This document shows positions 13,477 through 40,500 of a DNA stretch of 64,000 bases, in pieces. The first letter of the stretch is position 1. Each line of letters begins with the position of its first letter. This DNA is from Haplodiscus bocki (Eukaryota): the NCBI GenBank assembly GCA_965655095.1, contig OZ296652.1, forward strand, positions 70,184,001-70,248,000, written 5' to 3'. The notes below the pieces were generated by a model. It worked only from the letters and a program-made list of their open reading frames with translations, was not told the DNA's origin and searched no databases. Both the position numbers and the translations under genes were made by a program.

Positions 13477-13715
13477 GTGGTTGTCCTCTGTTTATTAATC
13501 TTCACTCCTGCTTCTGTTCGAAGTGATTAGGCTTCTAACATCGAAGCTGCGACGAATCCCGACGATCTTGTCAAAAAAGGGATTTTGTTCAATGAAGTCA
13601 GTAAAATCTTACTGACCGAAAAATTTATTCGAGTTGAATTTCTTGTACCGTTTCGGACTTATGAATTTACGATGAAGCCGGATATCGAAAAAATGATAGA
13701 ACAACTTTCACTTAT
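13477..13715 (+). pseudogene. N-terminal fragment of an env-like gene
   Basis: Signal-peptide-like VVVLCLLIFTPASVRS, then GILFNEVSKILLTEKFIRVEFLVPFRTYEF, which aligns by eye with AFIFSHKTKVAKKSIIVNFGYPFPQFDL of the env at ~38.5 kb. Confidence 0.55.
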
Positions 13716-13865
13716 CTTACTTTTCTATCTGCTTGTTTGGGAATTCTTTTCGTTCATTCTGTCTTTTCATCAACTCAACTTGGGTGTTTCAGTCATTTCA
13801 ATTCAAGCCTGCACTGGATTCATCTAACCGGATGGTGGTCTTTTTGAACAGGCCGGAAGTGTTTT

Positions 13866-14207
13866 GAAGGGAGGAAGTGTCATGTACTGAAACATTGCTT
13901 TTGTTGAGGACAGATGAACTTGAACTCACAACTACGAATTCCTTGACCTTTAAAACATTTATACATTTTAAACATTTAATTCTTGACATTTCAAATATTA
14001 ACTTTGAACAATGGACTTTAAACAATTTAGATACTTAACTAACCAAGAAGCAGGTTTGTGCTCACGATCCGAAGTAAACTGACTCCGCTCGCCAAAAGAA
14101 ATCTCAATAAAAATGCATTAAACCTGAAAGACGATGTATATTAGTGTGCTCGTGTTTTTGCACCAATCGATGACTAGCCATTAACTAGAGAAGTCTGTTA
14201 AGGCAAC
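13866..14207 (+). mobile_element. Polypurine tract plus probable 3' LTR of an internally deleted LTR retrotransposon
   Basis: GAAGGGAGGAAG (13866-13877) is followed directly by TGTCATG. AATAAA lies at ~14106 and a candidate CA end at ~14205-14207. It sits just after the env fragment. No second LTR copy was seen. Confidence 0.55.
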
Positions 14208-14639
14208 CTAATTTTTTTTTGCCGTGAAAAGTAACTTTTCGCCGGAAAAAGCGGAAAATTTTGGGTTTTCCGGATTTTTGAATTTAGTGCTCGTACTTCC
14301 TCCGGTTGATGGTGCTGTCAATCCTGTCGAAACTTCTTCAGATTGTTTTTCTGGCAGTAGTTCTATTGCCGTTTCAAATCTTTCGTTTTTCGGCGAGTAA
14401 TGGCCCGTTCTTGGGAGTAAAATTCTTTATATTTTTCGCCGCATGTGTAATATGCAAGAAAATTTTTTCAGTCAGTGGGGTCGTTTTTCTTTCTGTTCGG
14501 ACCAAAATTGCCAAGTCTTTTTAGTTAAAATTAAATGACAGCAGTAGGGTTAGGACAACAGCGTTCTTCGGCAGTAGGTTCGGGGCTCGAGGCTGTGTCA
14601 TGCCCATTATTTTTATGATTTGTCCCTAATATTTTTCGG

Positions 14640-15419: not shown

Positions 15420-18230
15420 GAAAGCCACCGAGCAGTATTCAAGCTCCTGATGTCAAGCGTGAATTGTACTGGAAACTGCGTGTAACACGTTCCATCTAAA
15501 TTGACCTTCTTAGAAAGGAATATCCAAACAATAAGTTCCCGATGTCTAACATGACAGACGCTGTCAGCCATTTTGCTGGCAAGCATTTATTCATTAAACT
15601 TGTTTGTACCCAAGCCTACCAGTGTGTTCAAATGGTGTACTCTTTATCCGTGCAATTCTAAGCATTTAATTTTGTATTGTGTCCTTATGCAAACCAAGTT
15701 TCAGCACAAGGGTTGAACAAGTCGGTGATTGGTTTTAGTGCATTTGTGAAAAAATATCTGTATCCCTGTCTAGCAGCAAATCTTTGCACCCAGTTTATGG
15801 TTGATATATGGTCCTGAAACTTTTTAAGAACTGAAATCACATGTCTAATAACTTTTCGCATTCATCAGAAGCTCAGGACTGAAACTATCACCTGAACAAC
15901 GTCATTTTGGCATGTCACAAATTTCTTTCTTGGGGTACACTAGCACACCAGAGAAGAAGAAGATCCGGAGGTTTCTGAGCAACATAACAATACCACCGAC
16001 AGTAAAGCAAGTGGAACGACTGACATGCTTCACACAATGTCTTAGAACATTCATCCCAAAATTGACTGCAAAACTTCTGCCTTTCTACAAACTTCTTCGC
16101 AGAGACGTCGAATTCAGAATTGAAAAAGGACAACTCGACAATTTTAAAACAGTCAAGAATGACCTTTTAAAGGCAGCTAATACCACTTTGAGGCTTGCGA
16201 AACCAAACCAAAATTACGTTATCATTTGTGATGCAATTTATCATTCCATTAGTTTCGTCTTGATGATTGGGGACTACTTAGAAAAACCCAATGGCAAAGA
16301 AACGAAAACCTATGCACCAGCTTCATTTGGAGATTCAATGAATCGCAACCTCAAATTTCAATTTGTTGTAAGGAGTTTCCAGCTCTCTATTTTGCATTGG
16401 ACACTTTCGCATTTTTCATTTTGGGATGCTGATGACCAATCCTTGTCTTAACTGACAATAATTTTTTGGCTCAGTTTTTCGAAACAAGAGAAATCACACA
16501 TTTTTTGCAACTTCTTGGACATAATTTTGGCATAGGACATCGTTCTAGCGCATGTACCGGGTTGCGCCCATGCAGCAGCCGTCTGTCTTCCCCGGTTGGA
16601 AACTAACCCAGGAGCAACCTTACAGCTCGGTTTGAACCAATCGATGACATCTCGGGAAATCAGTCTGAATGAAAGCAAAAACTCCGGACATCAGGATAAA
16701 CGAATTCCAATTAAAGAACCGATTGATTGATCCAATAGAACCATTCAAGAAGAGAACAGAATATTTTTACAGTGTTCCCTGACTCGACGAAGGATGTTCA
16801 GAATTCACGAAGTATTTGATGTCGAATGAGGTCACTCCACTATGATTTCACCAGATTGATGAGAGCAGAAATGAATGAACTGCACGAGGAAGAATTTTTC
16901 ACTTCTTTTGATATCGCGGCAAACTATGCACCATTAAATCCCCAAAAACGTTTAAAGATCTGACGATTTGACAAGTTCGATGATGGCTGGGTGGTCATCC
17001 TCAAGAAAACCAAACATATGCAAGTCATGTTTTCCGAAAGTATGCAAAACACAAAAATTGACTCACACGTGAATACGGTGCCCTTTATCGAGTTTTTCAA
17101 CGATGTAGGACAAGTGTCATTTTTACAATGGTATGTTTCCAAACACTTGCGACTTGAGATCTTGTACAGAATTCACAATTGAGTGGACACTTGGGCATGA
17201 ACAAAACAATCACAGAATTTCGGTTGAATTTTTTCTTTTTCTGGGTTTGCTGAAATTTTTTTTAGCTATGCGACAAAATGTTCTACTTGCCTCCGAACAA
17301 AAAATGTTCAAACTAGCTGTTTAAGACCAGCTATGGAAAGAATCGCATCGGACCAAGCATTTACTGTGGACTTGATGCAATTTGGTTTAGTTGGTCGCCT
17401 GTTTTCAATTGCCCTTCGACTGCCATGCACTTGCTCGTAGTTCCACTTTCGAGTATTACTGCAGAAAATGCCGCAAATCTTTGATTTCAATTTTCCTAAT
17501 TAAAGCTAAATTCCACAAACAATTCTCGCGGATTTAGGCTCAGGCTTCGTATCGAAACTAATACCCGAAGTGACTAAATTACTCAAAGTTCTTCGGAACA
17601 CACTTCATTGAAGCCTCCACAAACAACTGGCGTTGGTGAACGCGCACATAATGCATTTAAACGGATTCTGAATTTTAAGTCGTCAGCCGCCTAGTCAAAT
17701 TGGTATTAATTAGTAGACGCAGCCACCTTAGTCCGTATTACATCTTTATGAATATTCAACTGGTACGACGCCGAGTTGTTTATTTCATGGCCGTGAACCA
17801 CTGAAGTCGATGTATTAAAGTGTTTGGTGAAAACCGAGTAACGTCAGAAGTGCAGAATGATTATGTCAATGACTTGCATTGTACAATATTGACAGTTTGA
17901 ACAAACAAAAACTCGTAGTTTTTGCTTATCCCAGGTATTGTAGCTATTACGATCGGAAAGGCGAAGCGCAACCCTTGAAAAAGCACACTTACTGCATGCT
18001 TCTCAATCCTCTTCTAATTTGGAAACGTGGTTACCGCTCTACAGAATTGAACAAGTTCTCATAAATTCAAACTACATAAACAGGAAAATAGGAACGAACC
18101 ACACCGAATTTGCCCATCGACTCAGACTTCGAACCATTCAACCAGAATACCATGTTGATGATGTTCAAAATCCGGACCCGAGTCTTCCAGCCGAATACCT
18201 CGCTAACTTCATACCGTTGATAGCCTGCCC
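15420..18230 (+). pseudogene. pol: Ty3/Gypsy pol remnant (RT, RNase H, integrase)
   Basis: FPMSNMTDAVSHFAGKHLFIKLVCTQAYQCVQM...QGLNKS...QFMVDI is RT with a degenerate YxDD. ISFLG..PPTVKQV..FIPKL..KLLPFYKLLR is the thumb. YVIICDA is RNase H. Integrase-tail-like HRLRLR lies at ~18115. Many stops and frameshifts. Confidence 0.88.
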
Positions 18231-18890
18231 TTTTCGATGGGCCACTTCCAGACTTTTTGGAATCAGAACCTCTCACGGAAAGCGACCTGGAAGTATCTGG
18301 ACCACATCAAGAAAAAGGTACCACGACGTTGTCCATCCACGTGGTCCAATTCTTGGAAACGTCAAACGCCAGTAGCGGTGAAAGACCGGCAAATGCCTCA
18401 AAATTCGTGGAAGATGACATACCCATTTACAATTTAGAGCGACTCGAGACGCAGATGGCACTGAACATAACAGGACCACTGATGTGTACACAGTGATTCG
18501 GAAACAACCACACCTTCGAGTGCGTATGTATCTACCCGCGCACGCCTTCACCTTCACAAAAAACAGTCTCACATACAAAATCATGGTTTACGGAAAACGA
18601 CGATGAAGCTCGATGGTTGGGTGATGAAAAACACGTGGCTAGTCGTAATCGACTTGTTGAAGGACTTGTAGCCAATCGCGCTGCAGTGGCCAGACTCGAA
18701 GACAAACAAACAAATCACAACCGCAGAAAAAGGGTTCAACGAAATCAAAAAGTCCAGTCAAAAGCCCGATGATACCTTCACGAATCAACGGTAAATGGAA
18801 CTATTTTCTCCGTTCCAGAAACAATAGAGCACAAACTAATTCTCTCAAGTTTGAGACAGACTCAATTCCATCAGAATACATGGTTTTAGC

Positions 18891-19225
18891 GGCGATTTAC
18901 TTCAAAACCGAAACAACATTGCTTTTTGTGTTTCCCCTGATCTCCGAAGCGAAAAAGGTACTGCATATCAAATTGTTCAAAAGTTTCCTAAACACTCTGT
19001 TGAAATTTTGCACTTATAGGCTCTCACCGGGGTGGTTTTTGGGTTTTTACTGTGAACCAACAGGAATTTGGATGTATAGTTTGGTAACTAAGCACCACGC
19101 ATATGATAAACCATATGAATTTGTTCGACACTTTGAATAAAGTTAACGAATGTGCACACCTTGAAAATGACCAAATGCCAAGCGTCAGCTTACCACCAAT
19201 TACTTGTAGCCTCAATCTTGACTAC
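18891..19225 (+). pseudogene. OARD1/TARG1 (Poa1p-like) macrodomain remnant downstream of pol
   Basis: GDLLQNRNNIAFCVSPDLRSEKGTAYQIVQKF / (frameshift) IWMYSLVTKHHAYDKP / SVSLPPITCSLN parallels the TARG1-family blocks GDLF..LAHCISxD..MG.GIA..F..KF, YYLITK....KP and LSMPRIGCGLD in order and spacing. Confidence 0.7.
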
Positions 19226-21272
19226 TTACTGATGTGTCGGCACACCAACACAGTAGTCAAACTTTATTCATAATTTTACTCATCGAATTGAAGCAAAATC
19301 TTTCACCAAGACATCTAACTTCGATTAAAACAAAAAGGCCGCTCAGTCGCCCCCTCAACTAACTCAAAACACAGTCTTCCGCAATGCTTTCACTGACGGA
19401 ACTTATTTCAACCCTATCAGTATCAGATGGGGAAAGCGAAGATACCTATCCGTCACGGACGACCTATTCTTTGAAGAGGAGTCCCAGAGACAAAACCCTC
19501 CTGAATTGGAACTGTAATCACGCGGATTTCACCTCCCACCTTGGCAAATCGATGTCAACTCTACGGCTGATCTCTTCCTGCAGTATTCGCTCTATGGGAA
19601 TGCATCCGGACCCTTGAAGAAAATAATTTTGAAGAAGACACAAAAATAGGCACTACAAACCTGGTAATTTGGGGTGAATTGACTTCTTTTACTTTCTACG
19701 GCTGCACCATGACGTAATGACGTTCTCAATGATTGCGAAACACTCACTTTGCATGGCGATGACCCAGTTACAGCTCATGTACCGAAGCCTTTGACAAAGC
19801 CCGCTGTGCTCACCAGCAAAATCATTAAAGAAATCCTAGGCATCCTTGAAAAGCCAATCAACATTGACATCACTCCTTTTGAAGAAAGTGTGAATAAACT
19901 GAAATCTATGTGTAAACTATCGACTTACTAATTATGCACGCACAAATTGCTTCGATTCGGGGAAAAAAATTACGTTTCGAGAATTGCACCATTTCTCCTA
20001 TTTTTCGTCAATCATTTCACCCGACCAATGTATCAACGAATTCATGAAAAAGAACAACAAAACGACGGGAATGCCATCAAGCAAACCATGGTATTGGCCG
20101 TCCAAATCCTTTAAAGAACAAGTCAAGCGTCAAAAGCAAAAAGACTTGAGAACTCAACTTTGTTTGCGCAAAAATGCTAACACAAAACTTTCAGGTCCAC
20201 GGAACTGGAGTATGAATTAGTATTCATGAAAATTTTTCAATCGAGCAAATCTTCTCTATACTCTGAGCGCTACATAGTTGCCGTTTTCCGCTGCTCTAGA
20301 GTTTTAGTTTAGGAGAACTAATGATTTTGTCGACAAAACTCTGTCATAGCGAAAAAATGAGCTAAATGTATTTATTAGGCACAAAACACGATTTTCGCAG
20401 TTGCTTCACCACATTTCCGCTATCGGGCAAATTATGCTAGACAACTAGCTACCGGTGGGCACCATTTCGAAAAGATTGGTCAAGCGCGTTCAAGAGAAGT
20501 CAACTTTTTTTGTTCGAAAAACCAGTCCCTTCAACTGAATCCCTCATACTTCCGCAACATAATAACCGAGGCATATTTGTGACTGGCACTATCCGCCGAA
20601 AATCCTTTACAGCAAAGCTTTGCCTTGCCCTGCAGAAACGCCTGGTGCTAAGCCTCTGGACCTTGGAGGAGTCTCAACTGAGAACTCAACGTTTTTTGCA
20701 CTCTGTGCACAAAAACAAAATGACTCAAAAAAACGAAGTTTTCTTGTTGAAACTAACGTATTCAGATAAAGCGTCATCGAGCAAAGATCTCAATTACTCT
20801 CAGTGCTGGATTGCTCCTAAAAGTTTAAATTTGGTTCTTACATGCAATTAGAACTCAACTTTATCTGCAACGTTTCCATCGAATTTTCCAATGACTCCTT
20901 TACACCGAAATTGCTCTCAAATAGAAAATCTTTTTCCAATCCTGTTTACAGGTTGCATCTTTGTGAAGCCCTCTGTTCGACAGTCGGACTTTTTAACAAA
21001 ATTCACGGTCTTGTCTTTCTCAATTTTTAACAGCTCAGCAAAAATCAATACGATTACGCAGTAAAACATACGTCAACTAATTACAAATGCTGCAGCAATA
21101 CAAACACATATGGCGAGACCTGTGGTCCCAAGTCTGGGGATCACGCCCGCCAAAAAACCAGAGGCATTGACGAGAGCATTGTTCTTGAAACATCGAAGGC
21201 CACAGATCGTATCCTTCCCTAACATCTAAAAGACAACAGAAGCAACTGTACAATGACCGTCATCTTTCTTTG

Positions 21273-22390
21273 TCACGCCAACGACTGATTTTTTTGCTTC
21301 TTCTGCAGGATGCTCGCACGAATACGCGCTAATCTCATCTGCCACCGCTGCTTCCTGGTGACTTTTGGTTCTATCGCTCGCGATTTGTCTTCTGGAAACT
21401 CTCGCTTATTTAGTTGCTCCATTTTCATTGAAGCTTCCCATTTCTTTGTTTTCGCTTTTCCTTTGACGGCTTTAGCCTTTTTTTCCAGCGATGAATCCTT
21501 CAACATGTTCGTCGTTTTTCAGGTACAGACACCGGAAGTATAATTCCTTAGAACCTGTGCTTTACGTTTGGTGACTCTCGGATCTTTAGCTTCCCAGCCT
21601 GTCACAAGGGATGGTTTTCCAATATTGGAAAGAGCGAGAACGGATTGACATGATAACCCGGGTTAGGCCAACTAACTCTGAGCTTCCGAGATGAAACGTT
21701 TCACATGCTTTCCCTGGAATCGTTTTGGGCCTCTCAGCATCTCTCTCGCGAAGTCAACTACCGTTCCAAAAGTTTTGAAAAACTGTTAGAATATGTCCCA
21801 CTGTCTGAAATTTGGAAGATCTTTTCCCGATCAGGGTGTAAGAAATCGAATTGTCACCTCTTTGTTCAATATGAGCGTCCGTAAACCACTTACGGAAAGC
21901 CTAATTTGCGCTGGCCGGCCCATCTTCGAAAATTTCAGGAATTACTGTCTATCAAGTCATCCCTCTGCGTGTTCCATGCTTGGGAAATATTATTCCCTTC
22001 AGTCGCGTCCAGTTTTTTTGATCGGACGATTTTTTCCATACACGGGAATATCCAAAATAACTTCCACACATCTTTTCCTGCATTGTTTGATATGATCAAG
22101 GAAATTTTTGTCGACCTTGCACACGTCCTGATTGTGAAATGCAATTAAGTGACCAACCATTGCTCACCATTCTCCTGTGACGACAGCTCTGAAATTTATC
22201 TCATTCAAAGTTTCTGGACCATCCACGTCGATAGTCGGCATCAGTTACCAACCCAATTCCTCAGCTCCATCTTCCGAAGATTACATCTCCATAAAGCTTT
22301 CAATATCACGCATCCTCTGGAAAACACCTGAATCAAGGCCTCTCAACACACACGGTCTGTTTAGAACACGAACATCGAGACGACGCATGA
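21273..22390 (-). pseudogene. JmjC-like pseudogene (array copy 1, the only copy with the native C-terminus)
   Basis: KWFTDAHIEQRGDNSISYTLIGK/KIFQ...RFISEAQS*LA*PGLSCQSVLALS...VTGWEA aligns block for block with the 10.8-11.8 kb pseudogene. It has several stops and frameshifts, and the distal His position reads Gln. Confidence 0.68.
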
Positions 22391-25300
22391 GCAAACGATA
22401 AATTTTTTAACGATGCTTTTGTCAGTTTACAATGTTGACAGCAAAATATCCAAATTAATCCAATCCAAACTACTACACCTCTTTCCAGATATCTAGCTAA
22501 AGCAAAAAAAATTTTGAAAAAAATCAATTTTGTCGTGCTGAATCAAAGGTAGCACCTGACCAAAAACAAAGTCCAAATTTAGCTGAGCAACTGGCAAGTC
22601 AGTGTTTCTCAACATAGTACGGTGTTGACTCAAGTCGCCAACACAAATTTGTAAATAAATGTGAGTTCAGTTTAATCTACCATTGATTGTTTCAAAGCAA
22701 TTGTGACCAAATAGCGATATCCTGGAGCCATGTGCTAATTGGTTTGCCTTCGGCGAAGCCGCGCGAGGAAAATAAACAGCCCTGTCAAACTGAATGATCC
22801 GAGCCAGGATTGGTCATCACGCCCAAATGGATCATGCCACGTCACACACTCCCTGCTACCTTGCGCGCAGGCCACCTGCATTCCCTCCCTACGAACACAC
22901 GCCTTCTGGAAACTCTCGCTTATTTAGTTGCTCCATTTTCATTGAAGCTTCCCATTTCTTTGTTTTCGCTTTTCCTTTGACGGCTTTAGCCTTTTTTTCC
23001 AGCGATGAATCCTTCAACATGTTCGTCGTTTTTCGGGTACAGACACCGGAAGTATAATTCCTTAGGACCTGTGCTTTACGTTTGGTGACTCTCGGATCTT
23101 TAGCTTCCCAGCCTGTCACAAGGGATGGTTTTCCAATATTGGAAAGAGTGAGAACGGATTGACATGATAACCCGGGTTAGGCCAACTAAGTGTGAGCTTC
23201 CGAGATGAAACGTTTCACATGCTTTCCCTGTAATCGTTTTGGGCCTCTCAGCATCTCTCTCGCGAAGTCAACTACCGTTCCAAAAGTTTTGAAAAACTGT
23301 TAGAATATGTCCCACTATCTGAAATTTGGAAGATCTTTTTTTTTCGATCAGGGTGTAAGAAATGGAATGGTCACCTCTTTGTTCAATATGAGCGTCCGTA
23401 AACCACTTACGGAAAACCTAAATTGCGCTGGCCGGCCCATCTTCGAAAATTTCAGGAATTACTGTCTATCAAGTCATCCCTCTGCGTGTTCCATGCTTCG
23501 GAAATATTATTCCCTTCAGTCGCGTCCAGTTTTTTTGATCGGACGATTTTTCCCATACACGGGAATATCCAAAATAACTTCCACACATCTTTTCCTGCAT
23601 TGTTTGATATGATCAAGGAAATTTTTGTCGACCTTGCACACGTCCTGATTGTGAAATGCAATTAAGTGACCAACCATTGCTCACCATTCTCCTGTGACGA
23701 CAGCTCTGAAATTTATCTCATTCAAAGTTTCTGGACCATCCACGTCGATAGTCGGCATCAGTTACCAACCCAATTCCTCAACTCCATCTTCCGAAGATTA
23801 CATCTCCATAAAGCTTTCAATATCACGCATCCTCTGGAAAACACCTGAATCAAGGCCTCTCAACACACACGGTCTGTTTAGAACACGAACATCGAGACGA
23901 CGCATGAGCAAACGATAAATTTTTTAACGATGCTTTTGTCAGTTTACAATGTTGACAGCAAAATATCCAAATTAATCCAATCCAAACTACTACACCTCTT
24001 TCCAGATATCTAGCTAAAGCAAAAAAAATTTTGAAAAAAATCAATTTTGTCGTGCTGAATCAAAGGTAGCACCTGACCAAAAACAAAGTCCAAATTTAGC
24101 TGAGCAACTGGCAAGTCAGTGTTTCTCAACATAGTACGGTGTTGACTCAAGTCGCCAACACAAATTTGTAAATAAATGTGAGTTCAGTTTAATCTACCAT
24201 TGATTGTTTCAAAGCAATTGAGACCAAATAGCGATATCCTGGAGCCATGTGCTAATTGGTTTGCCTTCGGCGAAGCCGCGCGAGGAAAATAAACAGCCCT
24301 GTCAAACTGAATGATCCGAGCCAGGATTGGTCATCACGCCCAAATGGATCATGCCACGTCACACACTCCCTGCTACCTTGCGCGCAGGCCACCTGCATTC
24401 CCTCCCTACGAACACACGCCTTCTGGAAACTCTCGCTTATTTAGTTGCTCCATTTTCATTGAAGCTTCCCATTTCTTTGTTTTCGCTTTTCCTTTGACGG
24501 CTTTAGCCTTTTTTTCCAGCGATGAATCCTTCAACATGTTCGTCGTTTTTCGGGTACAGACACCGGAAGTATAATTCCTTAGGACCTGTGCTTTACGTTT
24601 GGTGACTCTCGGATCTTTAGCTTCCCAGCCTGTCACAAGGGATGGTTTTCCAATATTGGAAAGAGTGAGAACGGATTGACATGATAACCCGGGTTAGGCC
24701 AACTAAGTGTGAGCTTCCGAGATGAAACGTTTCACATGCTTTCCCTGTAATCGTTTTGGGCCTCTCAGCATCTCTCTCGCGAAGTCAACTACCGTTCCAA
24801 AAGTTTTGAAAAACTGTTAGAATATGTCCCACTATCTGAAATTTGGAAGATCTTTTTTTTTCGATCAGGGTGTAAGAAATGGAATGGTCACCTCTTTGTT
24901 CAATATGAGCGTCCGTAAACCACTTACGGAAAACCTAAATTGCGCTGGCCGGCCCATCTTCGAAAATTTCAGGAATTACTGTCTATCAAGTCATCCCTCT
25001 GCGTGTTCCATGCTTGGGAAATATTATTCCCTTCAGTCGCGTCCAGTTTTTTTGATCGGACGATTTTTCCCATACACGGGAATATCCAAAATAACTTCCA
25101 CACATCTTTTCCTGCATTGTTTGATATGATCAAGGAAATTTTTGTCGACCTTGCACACGTCCTGATTGTGAAATGCAATTAAGTGACCAACCATTGCTCA
25201 CCATTCTCCTGTGACGACAGCTCTGAAATTTATCTCATTCAAAGTTTCTGGACCATCCACGTCGATAGTCGGCATCAGTTACCAACCCAATTCCTCAACT

Positions 25301-28300: not shown

Positions 28301-31300
28301 AGTCGGCATCAGTTACCAACCCAATTCCTCAACTCCATCTTCCGAAGATTACATCTCCATAAAGCTTTCAATATCACGCATCCTCTGGAAAACACCTGAA
28401 TCAAGGCCTCTCAACACACACGGTCTGTTTAGAACACGAACATCGAGACGACGCATGAGCAAACGATAAATTTTTTAACGATGCTTTTGTCAGTTTACAA
28501 TGTTGACAGCAAAATATCCAAATTAATCCAATCCAAACTACTACACCTCTTTCCAGATATCTAGCTAAAGCAAAAAAATTTTTGAAAAAAATCAATTTTG
28601 TCGTGCTGAATCAAAGGTAGCACCTGACCAAAAACAAAGTCCAAATTTAGCTGAGCAACTGGCAAGTCAGTGTTTCTCAACATAGTACGGTGTTGACTCA
28701 AGTCGCCAACACAAATTTGTAAATAAATGTGAGTTCAGTTTAATCTACCATTGATTGTTTCAAAGCAATTGTGACCAAATAGCGATATCCTGGAGCCATG
28801 TGCTAATTGGTTTGCCTTCGGCGAAGCCGCGCGAGGAAAATAAACAGCCCTGTCAAACTGAATGATCCGAGCCAGGATTGGTCATCACGCCCAAATGGAT
28901 CATAACACGTCACACACTCCCTGCTACCTTGCGCGCAGGCCACCTGCATTCCCTCCCTACGAACACACGCCTTCTGGAAACTCTCGCTTATTTAGTTGCT
29001 CCATTTTCATTGAAGCTTCCCATTTCTTTGTTTTCGCTTTTCCTTTGACGGCTTTAGCCTTTTTTTCCAGCGATGAATCCTTCAACATGTTCGTCGTTTT
29101 TCGGGTACAGACACCGGAAGTATAATTCCTTAGGACCTGTGCTTTACGTTTGGTGACTCTCGGATCTTTAGCTTCCCAGCCTGTCACAAGGGATGGTTTT
29201 CCAATATTGGAAAGAGTGAGAACGGATTGACATGATAACCCGGGTTAGGCCAACTAAGTGTGAGCTTCCGAGATGAAACGTTTCACATGCTTTCCCTGTA
29301 ATCGTTTTGGGCCTCTCAGCATCTCTCTCGCGAAGTCAACTACCGTTCCAAAAGTTTTGAAAAACTGTTAGAATATGTCCCACTATCTGGAATTTGGAAG
29401 ATCTTTTTTTTTCGATCAGGGTGTAAGAAATGGAATGGTCACCTCTTTGTTCAATATGAGCGTCCGTAAACCACTTACGGAAAACCTAAATTGCGCTGGC
29501 CGGCCCATCTTCGAAAATTTCAGGAATTACTGTCTATCAAGTCATCCCTCTGCGTGTTCCATGCTTCGGAAATATTATTCCCTTCAGTCGCGTCCAGTTT
29601 TTTTGATCGGACGATTTTTCCCATACACGGGAATATCCAAAATAACTTCCACACATCTTTTCCTGCATTGTTTGATATGATCAAGGAAATTTTTGTCGAC
29701 CTTGCACACGTCCTGATTGTGAAATGCAATTAAGTGACCAACCATTGCTCACCATTCTCCTGTGACGACAGCTCTGAAATTTATCTCATTCAAAGTTTCT
29801 GGACCATCCACGTCGATAGTCGGCATCAGTTACCAACCCAATTCCTCAACTCCATCTTCCGAAGATTACATCTCCATAAAGCTTTCAATATCACGCATCC
29901 TCTGGAAAACACCTGAATCAAGGCCTCTCAACACACACGGTCTGTTTAGAACACGAACATCGAGACGACGCATGAGCAAACGATAAATTTTTTAACGATG
30001 CTTTTGTCAGTTTACAATGTTGACAGCAAAATATCCAAATTAATCCAATCCAAACTACTACACCTCTTTCCAGATATCTAGCTAAAGCAAAAAAAATTTT
30101 GAAAAAAATCAATTTTGTCGTGCTGAATCAAAGGTAGCACCTGACCAAAAACAAAGTCCAAATTTAGCTGAGCAACTGGCAAGTCAGTGTTTCTCAACAT
30201 AGTACGGTGTTGACTCAAGTCGCCAACACAAATTTGTAAATAAATGTGAGTTCAGTTTAATCTACCATTGATTGTTTCAAAGCAATTGTGACCAAATAGC
30301 GATATCCTGGAGCCATGTGCTAATTGGTTTGCCTTCGGCGAAGCCGCGCGAGGAAAATAAACAGCCCTGTCAAACTGAATGATCCGAGCCAGGATTGGTC
30401 ATCACGCCCAAATGGATCATAACACGTCACACACTCCCTGCTACCTTGCGCGCAGGCCACCTGCATTCCCTCCCTACGAACACACGCCTTCTGGAAACTC
30501 TCGCTTATTTAGTTGCTCCATTTTCATTGAAGCTTCCCATTTCTTTGTTTTCGCTTTTCCTTTGACGGCTTTAGCCTTTTTTTCCAGCGATGAATCCTTC
30601 AACATGTTCGTCGTTTTTCGGGTACAGACACCGGAAGTATAATTCCTTAGGACCTGTGCTTTACGTTTGGTGACTCTCGGATCTTTAGCTTCCCAGCCTG
30701 TCACAAGGGATGGTTTTCCAATATTGGAAAGAGTGAGAACGGATTGACATGATAACCCGGGTTAGGCCAACTAAGTGTGAGCTTCCGAGATGAAACGTTT
30801 CACATGCTTTCCCTGTAATCGTTTTGGGCCTCTCAGCATCTCTCTCGCGAAGTCAACTACCGTTCCAAAAGTTTTGAAAAACTGTTAGAATATGTCCCAC
30901 TATCTGGAATTTGGAAGATCTTTTTTTTTCGATCAGGGTGTAAGAAATGGAATGGTCACCTCTTTGTTCAATATGAGCGTCCGTAAACCACTTACGGAAA
31001 ACCTAAATTGCGCTGGCCGGCCCATCTTCGAAAATTTCAGGAATTACTGTCTATCAAGTCATCCCTCTGCGTGTTCCATGCTTCGGAAATATTATTCCCT
31101 TCAGTCGCGTCCAGTTTTTTTGATCGGACGATTTTTCCCATACACGGGAATATCCAAAATAACTTCCACACATCTTTTCCTGCATTGTTTGATATGATCA
31201 AGGAAATTTTTGTCGACCTTGCACACGTCCTGATTGTGAAATGCAATTAAGTGACCAACCATTGCTCACCATTCTCCTGTGACGACAGCTCTGAAATTTA

Positions 31301-34300
31301 TCTCATTCAAAGTTTCTGGACCATCCACGTCGATAGTCGGCATCAGTTACCAACCCAATTCCTCAACTCCATCTTCCGAAGATTACATCTCCATAAAGCT
31401 TTCAATATCACGCATCCTCTGGAAAACACCTGAATCAAGGCCTCTCAACACACACGGTCTGTTTAGAACACGAACATCGAGACGACGCATGAGCAAACGA
31501 TAAATTTTTTAACGATGCTTTTGTCAGTTTACAATGTTGACAGCAAAATATCCAAATTAATCCAATCCAAACTACTACACCTCTTTCCAGATATCTAGCT
31601 AAAGCAAAAAAAATTTTGAAAAAAATCAATTTTGTCGTGCTGAATCAAAGGTAGCACCTGACCAAAAACAAAGTCCAAATTTAGCTGAGCAACTGGCAAG
31701 TCAGTGTTTCTCAACATAGTACGGTGTTGACTCAAGTCGCCAACACAAATTTGTAAATAAATGTGAGTTCAGTTTAATCTACCATTGATTGTTTCAAAGC
31801 AATTGTGACCAAATAGCGATATCCTGGAGCCATGTGCTAATTGGTTTGCCTTCGGCGAAGCCGCGCGAGGAAAATAAACAGCCCTGTCAAACTGAATGAT
31901 CCGAGCCAGGATTGGTCATCACGCCCAAATGGATCATGCCACGTCACACACTCCCTGCTACCTTGCGCGCAGGCCACCTGCATTCCCTCCCTACGAACAC
32001 ACGCCTTCTGGAAACTCTCGCTTATTTAGTTGCTCCATTTTCATTGAAGCTTCCCATTTCTTTGTTTTCGCTTTTCCTTTGACGGCTTTAGCCTTTTTTT
32101 CCAGCGATGAATCCTTCAACATGTTCGTCGTTTTTCGGGTACAGACACCGGAAGTATAATTCCTTAGGACCTGTGCTTTACGTTTGGTGACTCTCGGATC
32201 TTTAGCTTCCCAGCCTGTCACAAGGGATGGTTTTCCAATATTGGAAAGAGTGAGAACGGATTGACATGATAACCCGGGTTAGGCCAACTAAGTGTGAGCT
32301 TCCGAGATGAAACGTTTCACATGCTTTCCCTGTAATCGTTTTGGGCCTCTCAGCATCTCTCTCGCGAAGTCAACTACCGTTCCAAAAGTTTTGAAAAACT
32401 GTTAGAATATGTCCCACTATCTGAAATTTGGAAGATCTTTTTTTTTCGATCAGGGTGTAAGAAATGGAATGGTCACCTCTTTGTTCAATATGAGCGTCCG
32501 TAAACCACTTACGGAAAACCTAAATTGCGCTGGCCGGCCCATCTTCGAAAATTTCAGGAATTACTGTCTATCAAGTCATCCCTCTGCGTGTTCCATGCTT
32601 GGGAAATATTATTCCCTTCAGTCGCGTCCAGTTTTTTTGATCGGACGATTTTTCCCATACACGGGAATATCCAAAATAACTTCCACACATCTTTTCCTGC
32701 ATTGTTTGATATGATCAAGGAAATTTTGTCGACCTTGCACACGTCCTGATTGTGAAATGCAATTAAGTGACCAACCATTGCTCACCATTCTCCTGTGACG
32801 ACAGCTCTGAAATTTATCTCATTCAAAGTTTCTGGACCATCCACGTCGATAGTCGGCATCAGTTACCAACCCAATTCCTCAACTCCATCTTCCGAAGATT
32901 ACATCTCCATAAAGCTTTCAATATCACGCATCCTCTGGAAAACACCTGAATCAAGGCCTCTCAACACACACGGTCTGTTTAGAACACGAACATCGAGACG
33001 ACGCATGAGCAAACGATAAATTTTTTAACGATGCTTTTGTCAGTTTACAATGTTGACAGCAAAATATCCAAATTAATCCAATCCAAACTACTACACCTCT
33101 TTCCAGATATCTAGCTAAAGCAAAAAAAATTTTGAAAAAAATCAATTTTGTCGTGCTGAATCAAAGGTAGCACCTGACCAAAAACAAAGTCCAAATTTAG
33201 CTGAGCAACTGGCAAGTCAGTGTTTCTCAACATAGTACGGTGTTGACTCAAGTCGCCAACACAAATTTGTAAATAAATGTGAGTTCAGTTTAATCTACCA
33301 TTGATTGTTTCAAAGCAATTGTGACCAAATAGCGATATCCTGGAGCCATGTGCTAATTGGTTTGCCTTCGGCGAAGCCGCGCGAGGAAAATAAACAGCCC
33401 TGTCAAACTGAATGATCCGAGCCAGGATTGGTCATCACGCCCAAATGGATCATAACACGTCACACACTCCCTGCTACCTTGCGCGCAGGCCACCTGCATT
33501 CCCTCCCTACGAACACACGCCTTCTGGAAACTCTCGCTTATTTAGTTGCTCCATTTTCATTGAAGCTTCCCATTTCTTTGTTTTCGCTTTTCCTTTGACG
33601 GCTTTAGCCTTTTTTTCCAGCGATGAATCCTTCAACATGTTCGTCGTTTTTCGGGTACAGACACCGGAAGTATAATTCCTTAGGACCTGTGCTTTACGTT
33701 TGGTGACTCTCGGATCTTTAGCTTCCCAGCCTGTCACAAGGGATGGTTTTCCAATATTGGAAAGAGTGAGAACGGATTGACATGATAACCCGGGTTAGGC
33801 CAACTAAGTGTGAGCTTCCGAGATGAAACGTTTCACATGCTTTCCCTGTAATCGTTTTGGGCCTCTCAGCATCTCTCTCGCGAAGTCAACTACCGTTCCA
33901 AAAGTTTTGAAAAACTGTTAGAATATGTCCCACTATCTGAAATTTGGAAGATCTTTTTTTTCGATCAGGGTGTAAGAAATGGAATGGTCACCTCTTTGTT
34001 CAATATGAGCGTCCGTAAACCACTTACGGAAAACCTAAATTGCGCTGGCCGGCCCATCTTCGAAAATTTCAGGAATTACTGTCTATCAAGTCATCCCTCT
34101 GCGTGTTCCATGCTTGGGAAATATTATTCCCTTCAGTCGCGTCCAGTTTTTTTGATCGGACGATTTTTCCCATACACGGGAATATCCAAAATAACTTCCA
34201 CACATCTTTTCCTGCATTGTTTGATATGATCAAGGAAATTTTTGTCGACCTTGCACACGTCCTGATTGTGAAATGCAATTAAGTGACCAACCATTGCTCA

Positions 34301-37300
34301 CCATTCTCCTGTGACGACAGCTCTGAAATTTATCTCATTCAAAGTTTCTGGACCATCCACGTCGATAGTCGGCATCAGTTACCAACCCAATTCCTCAACT
34401 CCATCTTCCGAAGATTACATCTCCATAAAGCTTTCAATATCACGCATCCTCTGGAAAACACCTGAATCAAGGCCTCTCAACACACACGGTCTGTTTAGAA
34501 CACGAACATCGAGACGACGCATGAGCAAACGATAAATTTTTTAACGATGCTTTTGTCAGTTTACAATGTTGACAGCAAAATATCCAAATTAATCCAATCC
34601 AAACTACTACACCTCTTTCCAGATATCTAGCTAAAGCAAAAAAAATTTTGAAAAAAATCAATTTTGTCGTGCTGAATCAAAGGTAGCACCTGACCAAAAA
34701 CAAAGTCCAAATTTAGCTGAGCAACTGGCAAGTCAGTGTTTCTCAACATAGTACGGTGTTGACTCAAGTCGCCAACACAAATTTGTAAATAAATGTGAGT
34801 TCAGTTTAATCTACCATTGATTGTTTCAAAGCAATTGAGACCAAATAGCGATATCCTGGAGCCATGTGCTAATTGGTTTGCCTTCGGCGAAGCCGCGCGA
34901 GGAAAATAAACAGCCCTGTCAAACTGAATGATCCGAGCCAGGATTGGTCATCACGCCCAAATGGATCATGCCACGTCACACACTCCCTGCTACCTTGCGC
35001 GCAGGCCACCTGCATTCCCTCCCTACGAACACACGCCTTCTGGAAACTCTCGCTTATTTAGTTGCTCCATTTTCATTGAAGCTTCCCATTTCTTTGTTTT
35101 CGCTTTTCCTTTGACGGCTTTAGCCTTTTTTTCCAGCGATGAATCCTTCAACATGTTCGTCGTTTTTCGGGTACAGACACCGGAAGTATAATTCCTTAGG
35201 ACCTGTGCTTTACGTTTGGTGACTCTCGGATCTTTAGCTTCCCAGCCTGTCACAAGGGATGGTTTTCCAATATTGGAAAGAGTGAGAACGGATTGACATG
35301 ATAACCCGGGTTAGGCCAACTAAGTGTGAGCTTCCGAGATGAAACGTTTCACATGCTTTCCCTGTAATCGTTTTGGGCCTCTCAGCATCTCTCTCGCGAA
35401 GTCAACTACCGTTCCAAAAGTTTTGAAAAACTGTTAGAATATGTCCCACTATCTGAAATTTGGAAGATCTTTTTTTTTCGATCAGGGTGTAAGAAATGGA
35501 ATGGTCACCTCTTTGTTCAATATGAGCGTCCGTAAACCACTTACGGAAAACCTAAATTGCGCTGGCCGGCCCATCTTCGAAAATTTCAGGAATTACTGTC
35601 TATCAAGTCATCCCTCTGCGTGTTCCATGCTTGGGAAATATTATTCCCTTCAGTCGCGTCCAGTTTTTTTGATCGGACGATTTTTCCCATACACGGGAAT
35701 ATCCAAAATAACTTCCACACATCTTTTCCTGCATTGTTTGATATGATCAAGGAAATTTTTGTCGACCTTGCACACGTCCTGATTGTGAAATGCAATTAAG
35801 TGACCAACCATTGCTCACCATTCTCCTGTGACGACAGCTCTGAAATTTATCTCATTCAAAGTTTCTGGACCATCCACGTCGATAGTCGGCATCAGTTACC
35901 AACCCAATTCCTCAACTCCATCTTCCGAAGATTACATCTCCATAAAGCTTTCAATATCACGCATCCTCTGGAAAACACCTGAATCAAGGCCTCTCAACAC
36001 ACACGGTCTGTTTAGAACACGAACATCGAGACGACGCATGAGCAAACGATAAATTTTTTAACGATGCTTTTGTCAGTTTACAATGTTGACAGCAAAATAT
36101 CCAAATTAATCCAATCCAAACTACTACACCTCTTTCCAGATATCTAGCTAAAGCAAAAAAAATTTTGAAAAAAATCAATTTTGTCGTGCTGAATCAAAGG
36201 TAGCACCTGACCAAAAACAAAGTCCAAATTTAGCTGAGCAACTGGCAAGTCAGTGTTTCTCAACATAGTACGGTGTTGACTCAAGTCGCCAACACAAATT
36301 TGTAAATAAATGTGAGTTCAGTTTAATCTACCATTGATTGTTTCAAAGCAATTGAGACCAAATAGCGATATCCTGGAGCCATGTGCTAATTGGTTTGCCT
36401 TCGGCGAAGCCGCGCGAGGAAAATAAACAGCCCTGTCAAACTGAATGATCCGAGCCAGGATTGGTCATCACGCCCAAATGGATCATGCCACGTCACACAC
36501 TCCCTGCTACCTTGCGCGCAGGCCACCTGCATTCCCTCCCTACGAACACACGCCTTCTGGAAACTCTCGCTTATTTAGTTGCTCCATTTTCATTGAAGCT
36601 TCCCATTTCTTTGTTTTCGCTTTTCCTTTGACGGCTTTAGCCTTTTTTTCCAGCGATGAATCCTTCAACATGTTCGTCGTTTTTCGGGTACAGACACCGG
36701 AAGTATAATTCCTTAGGACCTGTGCTTTACGTTTGGTGACTCTCGGATCTTTAGCTTCCCAGCCTGTCACAAGGGATGGTTTTCCAATATTGGAAAGAGT
36801 GAGAACGGATTGACATGATAACCCGGGTTAGGCCAACTAAGTGTGAGCTTCCGAGATGAAACGTTTCACATGCTTTCCCTGTAATCGTTTTGGGCCTCTC
36901 AGCATCTCTCTCGCGAAGTCAACTACCGTTCCAAAAGTTTTGAAAAACTGTTAGAATATGTCCCACTATCTGAAATTTGGAAGATCTTTTTTTTTCGATC
37001 AGGGTGTAAGAAATGGAATGGTCACCTCTTTGTTCAATATGAGCGTCCGTAAACCACTTACGGAAAACCTAAATTGCGCTGGCCGGCCCATCTTCGAAAA
37101 TTTCAGGAATTACTGTCTATCAAGTCATCCCTCTGCGTGTTCCATGCTTGGGAAATATTATTCCCTTCAGTCGCGTCCAGTTTTTTTGATCGGACGATTT
37201 TTCCCATACACGGGAATATCCAAAATAACTTCCACACATCTTTTCCTGCATTGTTTGATATGATCAAGGAAATTTTTGTCGACCTTGCACACGTCCTGAT

Positions 37301-38073
37301 TGTGAAATGCAATTAAGTGACCAACCATTGCTCACCATTCTCCTGTGACGACAGCTCTGAAATTTATCTCATTCAAAGTTTCTGGACCATCCACGTCGAT
37401 AGTCGGCATCAGTTACCAACCCAATTCCTCAACTCCATCTTCCGAAGATTACATCTCCATAAAGCTTTCAATATCACGCATCCTCTGGAAAACACCTGAA
37501 TCAAGGCCTCTCAACACACACGGTCTGTTTAGAACACGAACATCGAGACGACGCATGAGCAAACGATAAATTTTTTAACGATGCTTTTGTCAGTTTACAA
37601 TGTTGACAGCAAAATATCCAAATTAATCCAATCCAAACTACTACACCTCTTTCCAGATATCTAGCTAAAGCAAAAAAAATTTTGAAAAAAATCAATTTTG
37701 TCGTGCTGAATCAAAGGTAGCACCTGACCAAAAACAAAGTCCAAATTTAGCTGAGCAACTGGCAAGTCAGTGTTTCTCAACATAGTACGGTGTTGACTCA
37801 AGTCGCCAACACAAATTTGTAAATAAATGTGAGTTCAGTTTAATCTACCATTGATTGTTTCAAAGCAATTGTGACCAAATAGCGATATCCTGGAGCCATG
37901 TGCTAATTGGTTTGCCTTCGGCGAAGCCGCGCGAGGAAAATAAACAGCCCTGTCAAACTGAATGATCCGAGCCAGGATTGGTCATCACGCCCAAATGGAT
38001 CATGCCACGTCACACACTCCCTGCTACCTTGCGCGCAGGCCACCTGCATTCCCTCCCTACGAACACACGCCTT
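21389..38073. repeat. Tandem array of 11 head-to-tail copies of a ~1517-bp unit (16.7 kb)
   Basis: The junction CACACGCCTTCTGGAAACTC recurs at ~22902, 24419, 25936, 27453, 28970, 30487, 32004, 33520, 35036 and 36553. The ORF track repeats with a 1516-1517 bp period. Copies 2-11 differ by only a few SNPs or homopolymer indels. Confidence 0.99.
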
Positions 38074-38204
38074 TCTTGGCAGCAGTAGAGGGCCTCCCGC
38101 AATCAGTGACACTCAGGCACTTCCATCATTCTTCTCGAAAATCAATAAAAGCAGGCTTTTATGTGCAGGGAAAAGTATACCATAGATTTATGACTAGTAC
38201 ATAA

Positions 38205-40500
38205 TTTATATGAATTTGTTTCCGTGTCAGTTTTGCTCATCACTACTGTTACTTGTTCCACTTGGCAATCAGACATCATTCCAGATCTTGTATGCCTTGA
38301 AAACAAAAAAAGCATCATTGAAGACAAATTTGTAAACGTGTATCATTGTTGTTGTTGGTGGTTCTCTAGCATTTTCTCTCCTAGTTTACCGATACGTCCA
38401 GCTAATCCATGTTTCAGTTCTCGTCTCGCTTTTAACTTACAGAACATTGTCGACTTCCGAGTGGCAACCAGACATATCACCTGATCATGACCCACACGTT
38501 TCATTGGAGAATGCTTTTATATTCAGTCATAAAACAAAGGTCGCTAAAAAAAGCATAATTGTGAATTTCGGGTACCCTTTCCTCAATTCGATCTCCAAAT
38601 TCATGAACATCTCATCATGACTGAACAACCACTTCAACGACTTTGGGTTAAACCCACCATCTACTGAGACTTGACATTTTCAATCAACTTTGCTGTGAAT
38701 GAATCAGAGTTCCAAATCAACTGGATGTTCAGTCAAGACCAAAATCAGTCATACTTGGCCTTTCATAATATCACGAGGTTACGTCATGACCTTGCTTCAC
38801 TTTTGAATCAGAACGACCAGCCACTTCACAACCAAGTTCGAGATAGGCAGGCAGCTCCATTAGCATTCGCTGCTCTAGCTTCAGTTGTTTTTCTGGAAGT
38901 GGAATTCTAACTGGAAGCAGCAATGGCTGCGGACTTCGATGAGTCTTCGGATCCTACCAAGACCGAGAAAAAGAAAACGCGGAAAACATTCTTCAAATAA
39001 CCAATTAGGCGGAGATCATAGCCAAGGATATACACAAACTGGGGTCAGAAACAAATGAGATGTTCTACCTGCTGACGAGCCGAGTGTCGACACTCTAACC
39101 GCAAGAAATTTGCTTACAGTCAGAACAAGAATTGGAAGGTCATTGGACAACCATTCGACATCTTCAAACAAAGCATCCATATACTACGCAATTGTTTACA
39201 GCTACTTTTTCTAGACAGCAGATAAGTTTCAATTACGACATGGTTTGAGACTTTTTGACGATGATAACTTCAACATCAAAGCGTACCGGACTGCTCAACT
39301 TTCGGAATGCTATTCCCACATTATTAGGTCAATTTCTACGAATGTCATTGTTACCGCGTGAATTCTATTACAAATTGCCAAGGAAATGATAATGGATCAA
39401 GGCCAAGCAAATGATCCTCTACCATTAGCCATTCCACCAAAAGAAATCCTAACGTATGAGGAAGCGAAACTGTTAACCGATGTCTACATTAAAAGAAAGC
39501 CTCGTGCAGACCATATCAGTACCACTGACATCAAAACAGACAGCACTGACAGTGTATAGGGCAAACCTTATACCAATGCAGCAACCAGAACCAACTATGA
39601 AGAACCAACAATCATGTTTTTTTAGCAAGTTGTGAAGACAACTTAGAGACTGCTTTACTACCTCAATATGACTTGGACAACTGCATTGGTTCAGCTACAT
39701 ATCAGACCGCCATCGATCAGATGCCACAGAGCGTGGGAATGGCTCGTGTTTGGATATTCTTTATTTCAAGGGACCGTTGGAGTCCATACAAAATTGTGAA
39801 ACAGAATTCATTGAGCTACCTGCTACAGAAAAAGCTCATCTTAGGATAACGAGTCTGGGTAATAACATCAGCTACAAAGGCCCACCCATTATACGAAACA
39901 TTTTCAAATACCAAAAACGGCTCGGGACTAGTCAAATTCCCTGGTTGCAACATCTGCCTCTTTATTTCATTAGCTTGTGGAAGACAATTGACTGGGCCAC
40001 ACATGACGATATGATCGGACTTACAGACTTGTCAGAAGTTACCAGCGATCAAAATCAACGTTAACTTACTGGACTCTCTGAAACACTTGCATAGTGAAAT
40101 TACACTAGTGGAAGTTATGCCTTAGTTCTCTACAAAGTCGGCCGCTTGAATACAAATGTTGACAGGTGTGCGAGATGAACTCCTATCGGGCCCGAAGCTA
40201 GAATCTACTGACAAACTCTTGGAAATGGCCAGACCGGTTGCTAGTACTATGACAGCATTGAGGCCATTCTTGAATAGAATATCTTCAAAGCTTTTCGACC
40301 TGGCAAACATGAATTGTTATGAACATCATATCCTTCATTGTCTCTGTGATTCTTCATTTTCTTCTCATATTTGTCCATCATGAATTCTAACGCTGCCGAA
40401 AATAGGCACCAAAATCACCTCTAGAATTGGACTCGATTGAAAATCATGAACAACGAGAAACTTGCATTGACGCTGATAATCGCCGCCCTTCAACTGGTGA
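38205..40500 (+). pseudogene. env: env-like fusion glycoprotein pseudogene
   Basis: Signal-like LLITTVTC. Basic site RDRQ (~38839, degenerate furin-like) is followed by a fusion-peptide-like AAPLAFAALASVVF/SGSGILTG and a heptad-like helix. A Cys-rich region (NCIGS, SCL, QNCET) precedes a TM-like IISFIVSVILHFLLIFV at ~40324-40374. Heavily disrupted. Confidence 0.72.

What the first reader, a model, noticed from the sequence alone, without database searches (positions are those of the whole stretch)
15420..40500. Env-bearing Gypsy element with macrodomain and JmjC cargo: a possible anti-silencing toolkit
Seen, after collapsing the array to one unit: pol(+), macrodomain(+), unknown coding remnants, JmjC-like(-), env(+), over about 10 kb. 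Known: TARG1-type macrodomains remove ADP-ribose, viral macrodomains counter PARP defences, and JmjC enzymes demethylate or hydroxylate histones and other substrates. Inference: an endogenous retrovirus-like lineage carrying two modification 'erasers' as accessory genes. I do not recognise this combination as described.
Basis: partly seen in the sequence, partly recalled or inferred. Interest (0 to 1): 0.8.

Follow-up and report, generated by a model that had tools for sequence, protein, structure and literature searches.

The report
Envelope retrotransposons carrying JmjC and macrodomain
These are decayed copies of virus-like jumping genes that seem to carry their own versions of two enzymes able to strip chemical marks off proteins or nucleic acids, which may help them evade host control, though neither activity has been tested.

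Summary
Observation confirmed. The window holds a dead Ty3/Gypsy element: RT-RH-IN(+), TARG1-like macrodomain(+), unknown remnants, JmjC(-), F-type env(+), then a polypurine tract and a candidate 3' LTR. The JmjC 5' part was amplified into eleven 1.5-kb copies after the gene died. One correction: the macrodomain is not a separate gene; in an intact relative (P0009) it is the in-frame C-terminus of Pol, where chromoviruses carry a chromodomain. That argues the JmjC is inherited cargo, not a nested insertion. The JmjC belongs to a family Pfam barely detects (195 clusters at 50% identity; model pLDDT 90; closest folds KDM7/PHF2/KDM2, tied with hydroxylases; HxE..H metal triad kept). Against: env relatives outnumber JmjC relatives 210 to 12, no full-length sibling could be fetched, and macro plus JmjC co-occur in one copy only. 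'Anti-silencing' is plausible but untested. Macrodomain cargo is already reported in fish ERVs; JmjC cargo was not found in five searches. New variant of a known kind.

The parts
15420..18304 (+). Element 2: pol remnant (RT, RNase H, integrase). 5'-truncated: no gag, protease or 5' LTR found. Many stops and frameshifts.
   Evidence: tblastn with P0009/P0008 covers 15509-18304; 15420-15508 by eye (frames); Pfam RT_RNaseH_2 E 0.03
18888..19270 (+). Element 2: TARG1-like macrodomain remnant, frameshifted; the in-frame C-terminus of Pol in the intact relative
   Evidence: 18888-19016 vs P0009 1682-1724, E 2.9e-4; remainder by eye; P0009 vs TARG1 E 6e-18
19329..20111 (+). Element 2: coding-like remnant of about 260 codons, unidentified
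   Evidence: stop-poor frames; no Pfam family
20147..20868 (.). Four dispersed copies of a 21-nt motif; a related core lies at 13121 in element 1's JmjC-env spacer
21291..22304 (-). Element 2: JmjC pseudogene, the only copy with its 3' end; HxE kept, distal His position not His
   Evidence: tblastn P0070 E 8e-38; P0001-3 E about 1e-11
21389..38073 (.). Tandem array, 11 x about 1517 bp: JmjC 5' part plus upstream region, with short microhomology at the junctions
   Evidence: copy 1 vs copy 2: 3 synonymous, 11 non-synonymous, 3 outside the aligned segments
38400..40513 (+). Element 2: F-type (class I fusion) env remnant, head-to-head with the last JmjC copy about 0.9 kb away; ends approximate
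   Evidence: tblastn P0022/P0059 over 38459-40441; Atlas Fusion_gly/Baculo_F 0.95-0.96 for P0059; ends from translation
40546..40854 (+). Element 2: 102-codon hydrophobic frame running over the PPT; may be chance
   Evidence: no Pfam family
40794..41393 (+). Element 2: polypurine tract (9 of 12 purines) then TGT at 40806, candidate 3' LTR; right end tentative
   Evidence: aligns with element 1's 3' end, PPT in register
10790..11830 (-). Element 1 (outside the finding): second JmjC pseudogene, near full length, HxE..H all kept
   Evidence: tblastn P0002 54% over 350 columns, E 8e-108; 59-73% in its two long in-frame pieces
13471..13716 (+). Element 1: env 5' end (about 80 codons); the rest of env is missing; head-to-head with JmjC about 1.6 kb away
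   Evidence: 85% to P0022, E 9e-33
13866..14230 (+). Element 1: polypurine tract (12 of 12 purines) then TGT at 13878, candidate 3' LTR; right end not defined

Best explanation
A lineage of envelope-bearing Ty3/Gypsy retrotransposons has the layout [gag]-pol(PR-RT-RH-IN-Macro)-spacer-JmjC(antisense)-env-PPT-LTR. SHOWN: the domains, their order and strands, the Pol-Macro fusion in an intact relative, the JmjC fold and conserved Fe(II)/2-oxoglutarate residues, and two distant elements with JmjC(-)/env(+)/PPT. INFERRED, likely (about 0.8): the JmjC is inherited but optional cargo, probably expressed from the internal region between it and env. INFERRED, plausible (about 0.55): the macrodomain is delivered with integrase in the particle and pre-integration complex, and removes or binds ADP-ribose put on element proteins or cDNA ends by host PARPs. 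INFERRED, weakest (about 0.4): the JmjC is a nuclear oxygenase that removes repressive histone methylation (KDM7-like, H3K9me2/H3K27me2) to keep integrated copies transcribed. The window copies are dead. The 11-fold array is a later, neutral tandem amplification of a pseudogene.
For: Fusion: P0009, 1817 aa, 61 members, RVT-RH-H2C2-rve then Macro; TARG1 E 6e-18. Lys1750 and Asp1791 are 41 apart. K84 is catalytic in TARG1 (PMC8501950 passages); D125 is recalled; the correspondence is inferred from alignment ranges, not a residue alignment. TARG1 reverses ADP-ribose on proteins and on DNA/RNA ends (PMC11088682 passages). Cargo: elements 1 and 2 both have JmjC(-) head-to-head with env(+) and then a PPT+TGT. 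Their 3' ends align over about 500 bp (score 108.5; 0 of 300 random window pieces reach it). Both genes are about 30% identical between the two families (P0002/P0070 33%; env 25-35%), while element 1's env is 85% to an intact relative, so these are separate insertions, not a local duplication. No TIR of 16 nt or more brackets either JmjC. Stops per 100 aligned codons are similar: pol 9/773, JmjC 6/299, env 8/585; element 1 JmjC 6/344, env 1/74. Enzyme: model pLDDT 89.7; best folds ceKDM7A Z 15.4 (rmsd 5.6, 256 aligned) and KDM2A Z 14.9 (3.8, 239); H-x-E/D..H in 49 of 69 rows covering all three positions; Thr 78/92, Lys 94/101; a basic stretch (6-11 K/R per 20 residues) starting after residue 295 in 11 of 15 near-full-length members.
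Against: No full-length sibling with both LTRs could be fetched; both window elements are 5'-truncated, and target-site duplications were not defined. Macro and JmjC occur together in one copy only. Env relatives of element 1 total 210 member sequences in 51 rows, JmjC relatives 12 in 7 rows (length windows differ). Element 1's env is 85% to its best relative but its JmjC only 59-73%, so many env-bearing copies may lack an intact JmjC. Hydroxylases score almost as well: JMJD5 Z 14.2 (3.5, 192), FIH 13.8, TYW5 13.7; identity to all is 9-15%; no PHD or other reader domain was found. The 120-bp PPT-only alignment is not significant (18 of 300) and the two spacers share nothing (80 of 100). No expression or dN/dS data.
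Confidence: 0.5

Rival explanations
1. Same anatomy, but the JmjC is a protein or RNA hydroxylase (JMJD5/FIH/TYW5-like) acting on host defence, translation or element components, not a histone demethylase. The toolkit is counter-defence or replication support, not anti-silencing.
For: Hydroxylase folds lie within about 1-2 Z of KDM7. No chromatin reader domain. Giant viruses and phages carry stand-alone cupin/JmjC proteins of similar size. Atlas neighbours include JMJD4 and hydroxylase clusters at 0.93.
Against: KDM7/PHF/KDM2 chains rank first and align over 240-270 residues including the C-terminal helices, versus about 190 for JMJD5. The only JmjC sequence hits in PDB were PHF8, though only at E 0.09. 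Basic C-terminal stretch suggests nuclear import.
Confidence: 0.3
2. The JmjC gene belongs to a separate mobile unit or host gene family that inserted into, or was captured sporadically by, these elements and is not maintained by them.
For: Env relatives far outnumber JmjC relatives (210 vs 12). JmjC identity to its best relative is lower than env identity in element 1. The antisense orientation would suit an insertion. Element 1 has nothing recognisable upstream of its JmjC to prove it lies inside the element.
Against: Same strand and head-to-head position in two families about 30% identical; no terminal repeats; equal decay; intact members are single 350-390 aa ORFs with conserved active site.
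Confidence: 0.15
3. The macrodomain works as a reader: like the chromodomain of chromoviruses it tethers integrase to ADP-ribosylated chromatin (breaks, repair sites) and sets insertion sites. Compatible with any JmjC role.
For: It sits at the Pol C-terminus after a Pro-rich linker, the slot chromodomains occupy (PMC13524379 passages; bioRxiv 2021.11.30.470311 passages). Macrodomains can be readers or erasers.
Against: It is of the catalytic TARG1 type and appears to keep the catalytic Lys.
Confidence: 0.25
4. Pol+macro and JmjC+env come from two different elements joined by nesting or deletion, so the full combination never existed in one element.
For: A 2-kb unidentified stretch separates macro from JmjC. 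Element 1 shows only JmjC-env-LTR.
Against: No LTR, PPT or repeat boundary was found in 19.2-21.4 kb; pol-env-PPT-LTR are in canonical order and strand; decay is equal.
Confidence: 0.15

Closest known systems
F-type env-carrying Ty3/Gypsy elements ('errantiviruses' in the wide sense of PMC13524379; passages read)
   Same: Gypsy pol plus F-type env with signal peptide, furin site, fusion peptide and TM; that paper reports C-terminal chromodomains in some clades
   Different: A macrodomain at the Pol C-terminus and an antisense JmjC gene; 'macro' and 'JmjC' occur 0 times in that paper's main text (supplements not read)
Fish epsilon-like endogenous retroviruses with macro domain or CNPase ORFs (PMC4977317 passage citing Basta et al. 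2009; Basta not read)
   Same: Env-bearing LTR retroelement carrying a macrodomain
   Different: Those are Retroviridae-like with an additional ORF; here a Gypsy with the domain fused to Pol, plus JmjC
Retrotransposons with captured epigenetic or enzymatic cargo: cytosine methyltransferases in Gypsy/DIRS (PMC6338049 passages); Chromo/PHD/SET fusions (bioRxiv 2021.11.30.470311 passages); DEDDy/GDSL ORF3 in bdelloids (PMC5408684 passages)
   Same: Accessory chromatin-related or enzymatic genes carried by LTR elements
   Different: Those are writers, readers or nucleases; the searched passages name no JmjC eraser; here it is stand-alone and antisense
Human TARG1/OARD1 (C6orf130)
   Same: E 6e-18 over the whole domain; catalytic Lys apparently kept in P0009
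   Different: Fused to integrase; activity untested; window copy broken
KDM7A/PHF2/PHF8/KDM2A demethylases and JMJD5/FIH/TYW5 hydroxylases
   Same: JmjC double-stranded beta-helix fold (Z 13-15) with a two-His/one-carboxylate triad
   Different: 9-15% identity; Glu rather than the Asp recalled for KDM7/KDM2; no PHD/CXXC; below Pfam's JmjC cut-off (best E 0.0098 in 1 of 24)

Membership tests
Ty3/Gypsy LTR retrotransposon | Pol order PR-RT-RH-IN | tested here: met
   RVT, RH, H2C2, rve in that order in P0009; PR inferred from position and motif by eye; window collinear for RT-RH-IN; best PDB match Ty3 Gag-Pol E 2e-43
Ty3/Gypsy LTR retrotransposon | Two LTRs, PBS, PPT and target-site duplication | tested here: inconclusive
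   PPT+TGT and a candidate 3' LTR in both elements; no second LTR copy in the window; 5' ends lost
Ty3/Gypsy LTR retrotransposon | gag upstream of pol; RT tree placement | not tested
   region lost in the window; no RT tree built
Env-carrying Gypsy (errantivirus, wide sense) | F-type env: signal peptide, furin site, fusion peptide, C-terminal TM, between pol and PPT | tested here: met
   motifs and hydropathy in P0022/P0059 (signal peptide by eye); Atlas 0.95-0.96; no Pfam or PDB sequence match
Env-carrying Gypsy (errantivirus, wide sense) | pol and env within one intact LTR-bounded copy | not testable with these tools
   no eukaryotic genome context available; only decayed window copies
Chromovirus | Chromodomain C-terminal to integrase | tested here: not met
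   P0009 has no chromodomain hit; a macrodomain is there instead
TARG1/OARD1-type macrodomain | Full-domain homology to TARG1 | tested here: met
   E 6e-18, residues 1667-1816
TARG1/OARD1-type macrodomain | Catalytic Lys (K84) and Asp (D125, recalled) | tested here: inconclusive
   P0009 K1750/D1791 have the expected spacing but no residue-level alignment to TARG1 was obtained; window copy is degenerate at the second motif
TARG1/OARD1-type macrodomain | ADP-ribosyl hydrolase activity | not testable with these tools
   needs an assay
JmjC 2OG/Fe(II) oxygenase | Double-stranded beta-helix JmjC fold | tested here: met
   pLDDT 89.7; Foldseek E 4e-10; Z 15.4, rmsd 5.6, 256 aligned; Atlas 0.96
JmjC 2OG/Fe(II) oxygenase | H-x-D/E..H triad and 2OG-binding Thr/Lys | tested here: met
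   49 of 69 rows; Thr 78/92, Lys 94/101; kept in element 1's copy, distal His absent in array copies; roles assigned from recalled JmjC motifs
KDM7/PHF2/PHF8 histone demethylases | N-terminal PHD finger with JmjC | tested here: not met
   no PHD in 27 scanned members; model aligns from residue 5 to the JmjC part
KDM7/PHF2/PHF8 histone demethylases | Demethylation of H3K9me2/H3K27me2 | not testable with these tools
   needs an assay

The most novel reading that the evidence does not exclude
A whole clade of envelope-bearing retrotransposons encodes its own histone lysine demethylase on the antisense strand plus an integrase-borne ADP-ribose eraser. That would be a retroelement enzyme that directly erases repressive chromatin marks, and the roughly 195-cluster JmjC family would be a retroelement-specific enzyme family shaped by conflict with host silencing.
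Probability: 0.3. Interest if true: 0.9.

Novelty: new variant of a known kind. Interest (0 to 1): 0.7.

Why it matters
Transposons are known to carry chromatin readers and writers. An element-encoded eraser would be direct evidence that retroelements fight silencing enzymatically. It would also supply compact, reader-less JmjC enzymes whose intact natural versions can be assayed now. A TARG1-type domain fused to integrase makes it testable whether ADP-ribosylation restricts, or guides, retrotransposon integration.

Tried and rejected
Pfam on window fragments: nothing above chance for env and element 1 pieces (126 fragments), macro and JmjC frames (9 frames), spacer remnants (9 frames) or 34 of 97 other window ORFs. 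The 125 stop-to-stop fragments of 15.3-22.9 kb were not scanned as a set; only four pol ORFs and the frames above were. PDB sequence search: none for element 1's JmjC, P0022 or the env profile; PHF8 at E 0.09 for the JmjC profile. The first fold, on 7 sequences, was useless (pLDDT 31). No shared protein between the two elements' spacers (best E 0.19) and no DNA similarity. No Rfam match. Contig-length linkage is weak. Cluster-member look-up (names, accessions) could not be made, so host and accessions stay unknown; metagenome and viral contig collections stayed unchecked, and the bacterial genome collection was not used. Selection on the array rejected: 3 synonymous to 11 non-synonymous. Local duplication of one element rejected (see the For line). 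A 28-bp likeness between 15480 and the LTR start 40805 (E 0.004-0.006) falls inside RT coding sequence and is treated as chance. Literature searches for JmjC cargo: 0 papers; 7 listed; 15 of 315 listed; 15 of 41 listed; 2. For macro cargo. Judged from listings, none describes JmjC cargo; 'JmjC' or 'jumonji' was also absent from the main texts searched. The library lacks most subscription papers and Repbase reports, and supplements were not read.
Full report
Observation. Self-comparison shows an array at 21389-38073 of 11 units near 1517 bp. The flanks are heavily decayed, and Pfam found almost nothing in them, so I identified each part through intact relatives. The RT/RH frame at 15852-16448 found 4 long relatives among 443 candidates. 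One, P0009 (1817 aa, 61 members), has RT, RNase H and integrase and ends in a macrodomain that matches human TARG1 at E 6e-18. It aligns collinearly to 15509-18304 and, weakly, to 18888-19016. The macrodomain is therefore part of Pol, not a separate gene.

JmjC. While reading frames I found a second, better preserved JmjC-like gene at 10790-11830 (-), outside the finding. It retrieved 7 relatives among 254 candidates, three of them intact 355-376 aa ORFs. A profile of these found 195 clusters at 50% identity. One of them, P0070, matches the array unit from 22304 to 21297 (-) at E 8e-38. A 114-sequence alignment gave a confident model (pLDDT 89.7). Its nearest solved folds are KDM7A, PHF2, KDM2A and PHF8 (Z 14-15.4), closely followed by the hydroxylases JMJD5, FIH and TYW5 (Z 13.7-14.2). 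The H-x-E/D..H triad is present in 49 of 69 rows that cover it. Pfam sees JmjC in only 1 of 24 members, below cut-off. The array copies keep HxE but lack the distal His; element 1's copy keeps all three.

Env. A profile of two env N-terminal pieces found 51 relatives among 1094 candidates, all ranked by identity to element 1. P0022 and P0059 have a furin site, a Gly-rich fusion peptide and a C-terminal TM, and the Atlas places P0059 with F0/baculovirus-F fusion proteins at 0.95-0.96. They align collinearly over 38459-40441 at 25-35%, and to 13471-13716 at 85% and 64%.

Is the JmjC part of the element? The window holds two elements with JmjC(-) head-to-head with env(+), each followed by a polypurine tract and TGT (13878, 40806). 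Their 3' ends align over about 500 bp; 0 of 300 random pieces score as high, although the 120-bp PPT region alone is not significant (18 of 300). The two families are about 30% identical in both genes, while element 1's env has an 85% relative, so they are independent insertions. No terminal repeats bracket the JmjC, and stop density is similar across pol, JmjC and env (1.2-2.0 per 100 codons). Against this: env relatives total 210 members versus 12 for JmjC; element 1's JmjC is only 59-73% to its best relative; and the one JmjC/env contig-length match could be chance at 10-29%. I read the JmjC as inherited but optional cargo (about 0.8). Macro and JmjC together are seen only in element 2.

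The array. Units start inside the JmjC 3' end and include its upstream region, with short microhomology at the junctions. Copy 1 differs from the others at 18-23 columns, copies 2-11 from each other at 1-8. The stops seen in copy 1 are also seen in copy 11, and copy 1 versus 2 differences look neutral. It is amplification of a dead gene; an assembly artefact for some copies cannot be excluded without reads.

Mechanism. Fusion to integrase implies the macrodomain travels with the particle and pre-integration complex (inference from retroelement biology). TARG1 removes ADP-ribose from proteins and nucleic-acid ends (PMC11088682 passages) and K84 is catalytic (PMC8501950 passages). P0009 has Lys1750 and Asp1791 at the spacing recalled for TARG1. 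I favour an anti-PARP eraser, with a chromodomain-like targeting reader as rival. For the JmjC I favour, weakly, a nuclear demethylase of repressive marks (fold rank, C-terminal helices, basic stretch), with a hydroxylase nearly as likely. Neither is shown.

Comparison with what is known. F-type env Gypsy elements are widespread (PMC13524379 passages). Macro ORFs are reported in fish ERVs (PMC4977317 passage). Methyltransferase, Chromo, PHD, SET, DEDDy and GDSL cargo are reported. From recall only, TARG1-like domains appear in automatic annotations of other invertebrate Gypsy proteins, so that half may be less rare than the literature search suggests. JmjC cargo did not appear, judged from listings, nor in the main texts searched. 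PMC12085086 mentions only a host Jumonji gene. Supplements were not read. Verdict: real, a new variant of a known kind, with the JmjC cargo the surprising part; interest 0.7.

Noticed in passing
window 10790-14230: Second, unrelated-family element with JmjC(-), truncated env(+), PPT and candidate LTR; the main new evidence for the finding.
   Followed up: yes
window 1-4285 (+): Helitron (Helitron_like_N E 2e-6, PIF1 E 2e-12) ending in a GIY-YIG domain (E 3e-10), broken by few stops and one frame change. 32 papers hold both words (listing only).
   Followed up: partly
window 7268-8284 (+): Open 338-codon frame with a Cys-rich stretch and no Pfam family; may be a second Helitron gene.
   Followed up: no
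window 9006-9623 and 10065-10682: 620-bp direct repeat, 89% identical, just beyond the 3' end of element 1's JmjC; may be the insertion that truncated it.
   Followed up: no
window 12791-13102 (-) and 21076-21225 (-): Short hydrophobic, TM-like antisense frames beside each JmjC; possibly further small accessory genes; no significant family.
   Followed up: partly
window 20147-20868 and 13121: A 21-nt motif four times in element 2's spacer with a matching core in element 1's spacer; possible cis-element or antisense peptide repeat.
   Followed up: no
window 21393-22906: All 17 substitutions between array copy 1 and copy 2, bar those private to copy 2, fall in the first 875 bp of the unit, suggesting unequal exchange between two haplotypes or siblings.
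   Followed up: partly
window 54151-56779 (-): Two long Ser/Pro-rich frames (565 and 248 codons), probably exons of a host gene; no convincing Pfam family.
   Followed up: no
window 61961-64000; 14632-14832; 51309-51405: Degenerate satellite of about 179 bp; two 94-bp repeats just upstream of the truncated pol; an exact 48-bp duplication.
   Followed up: no
P0008: This pol relative carries a duplicated RT-RNase H block; possibly an assembly error or internal duplication.
   Followed up: no
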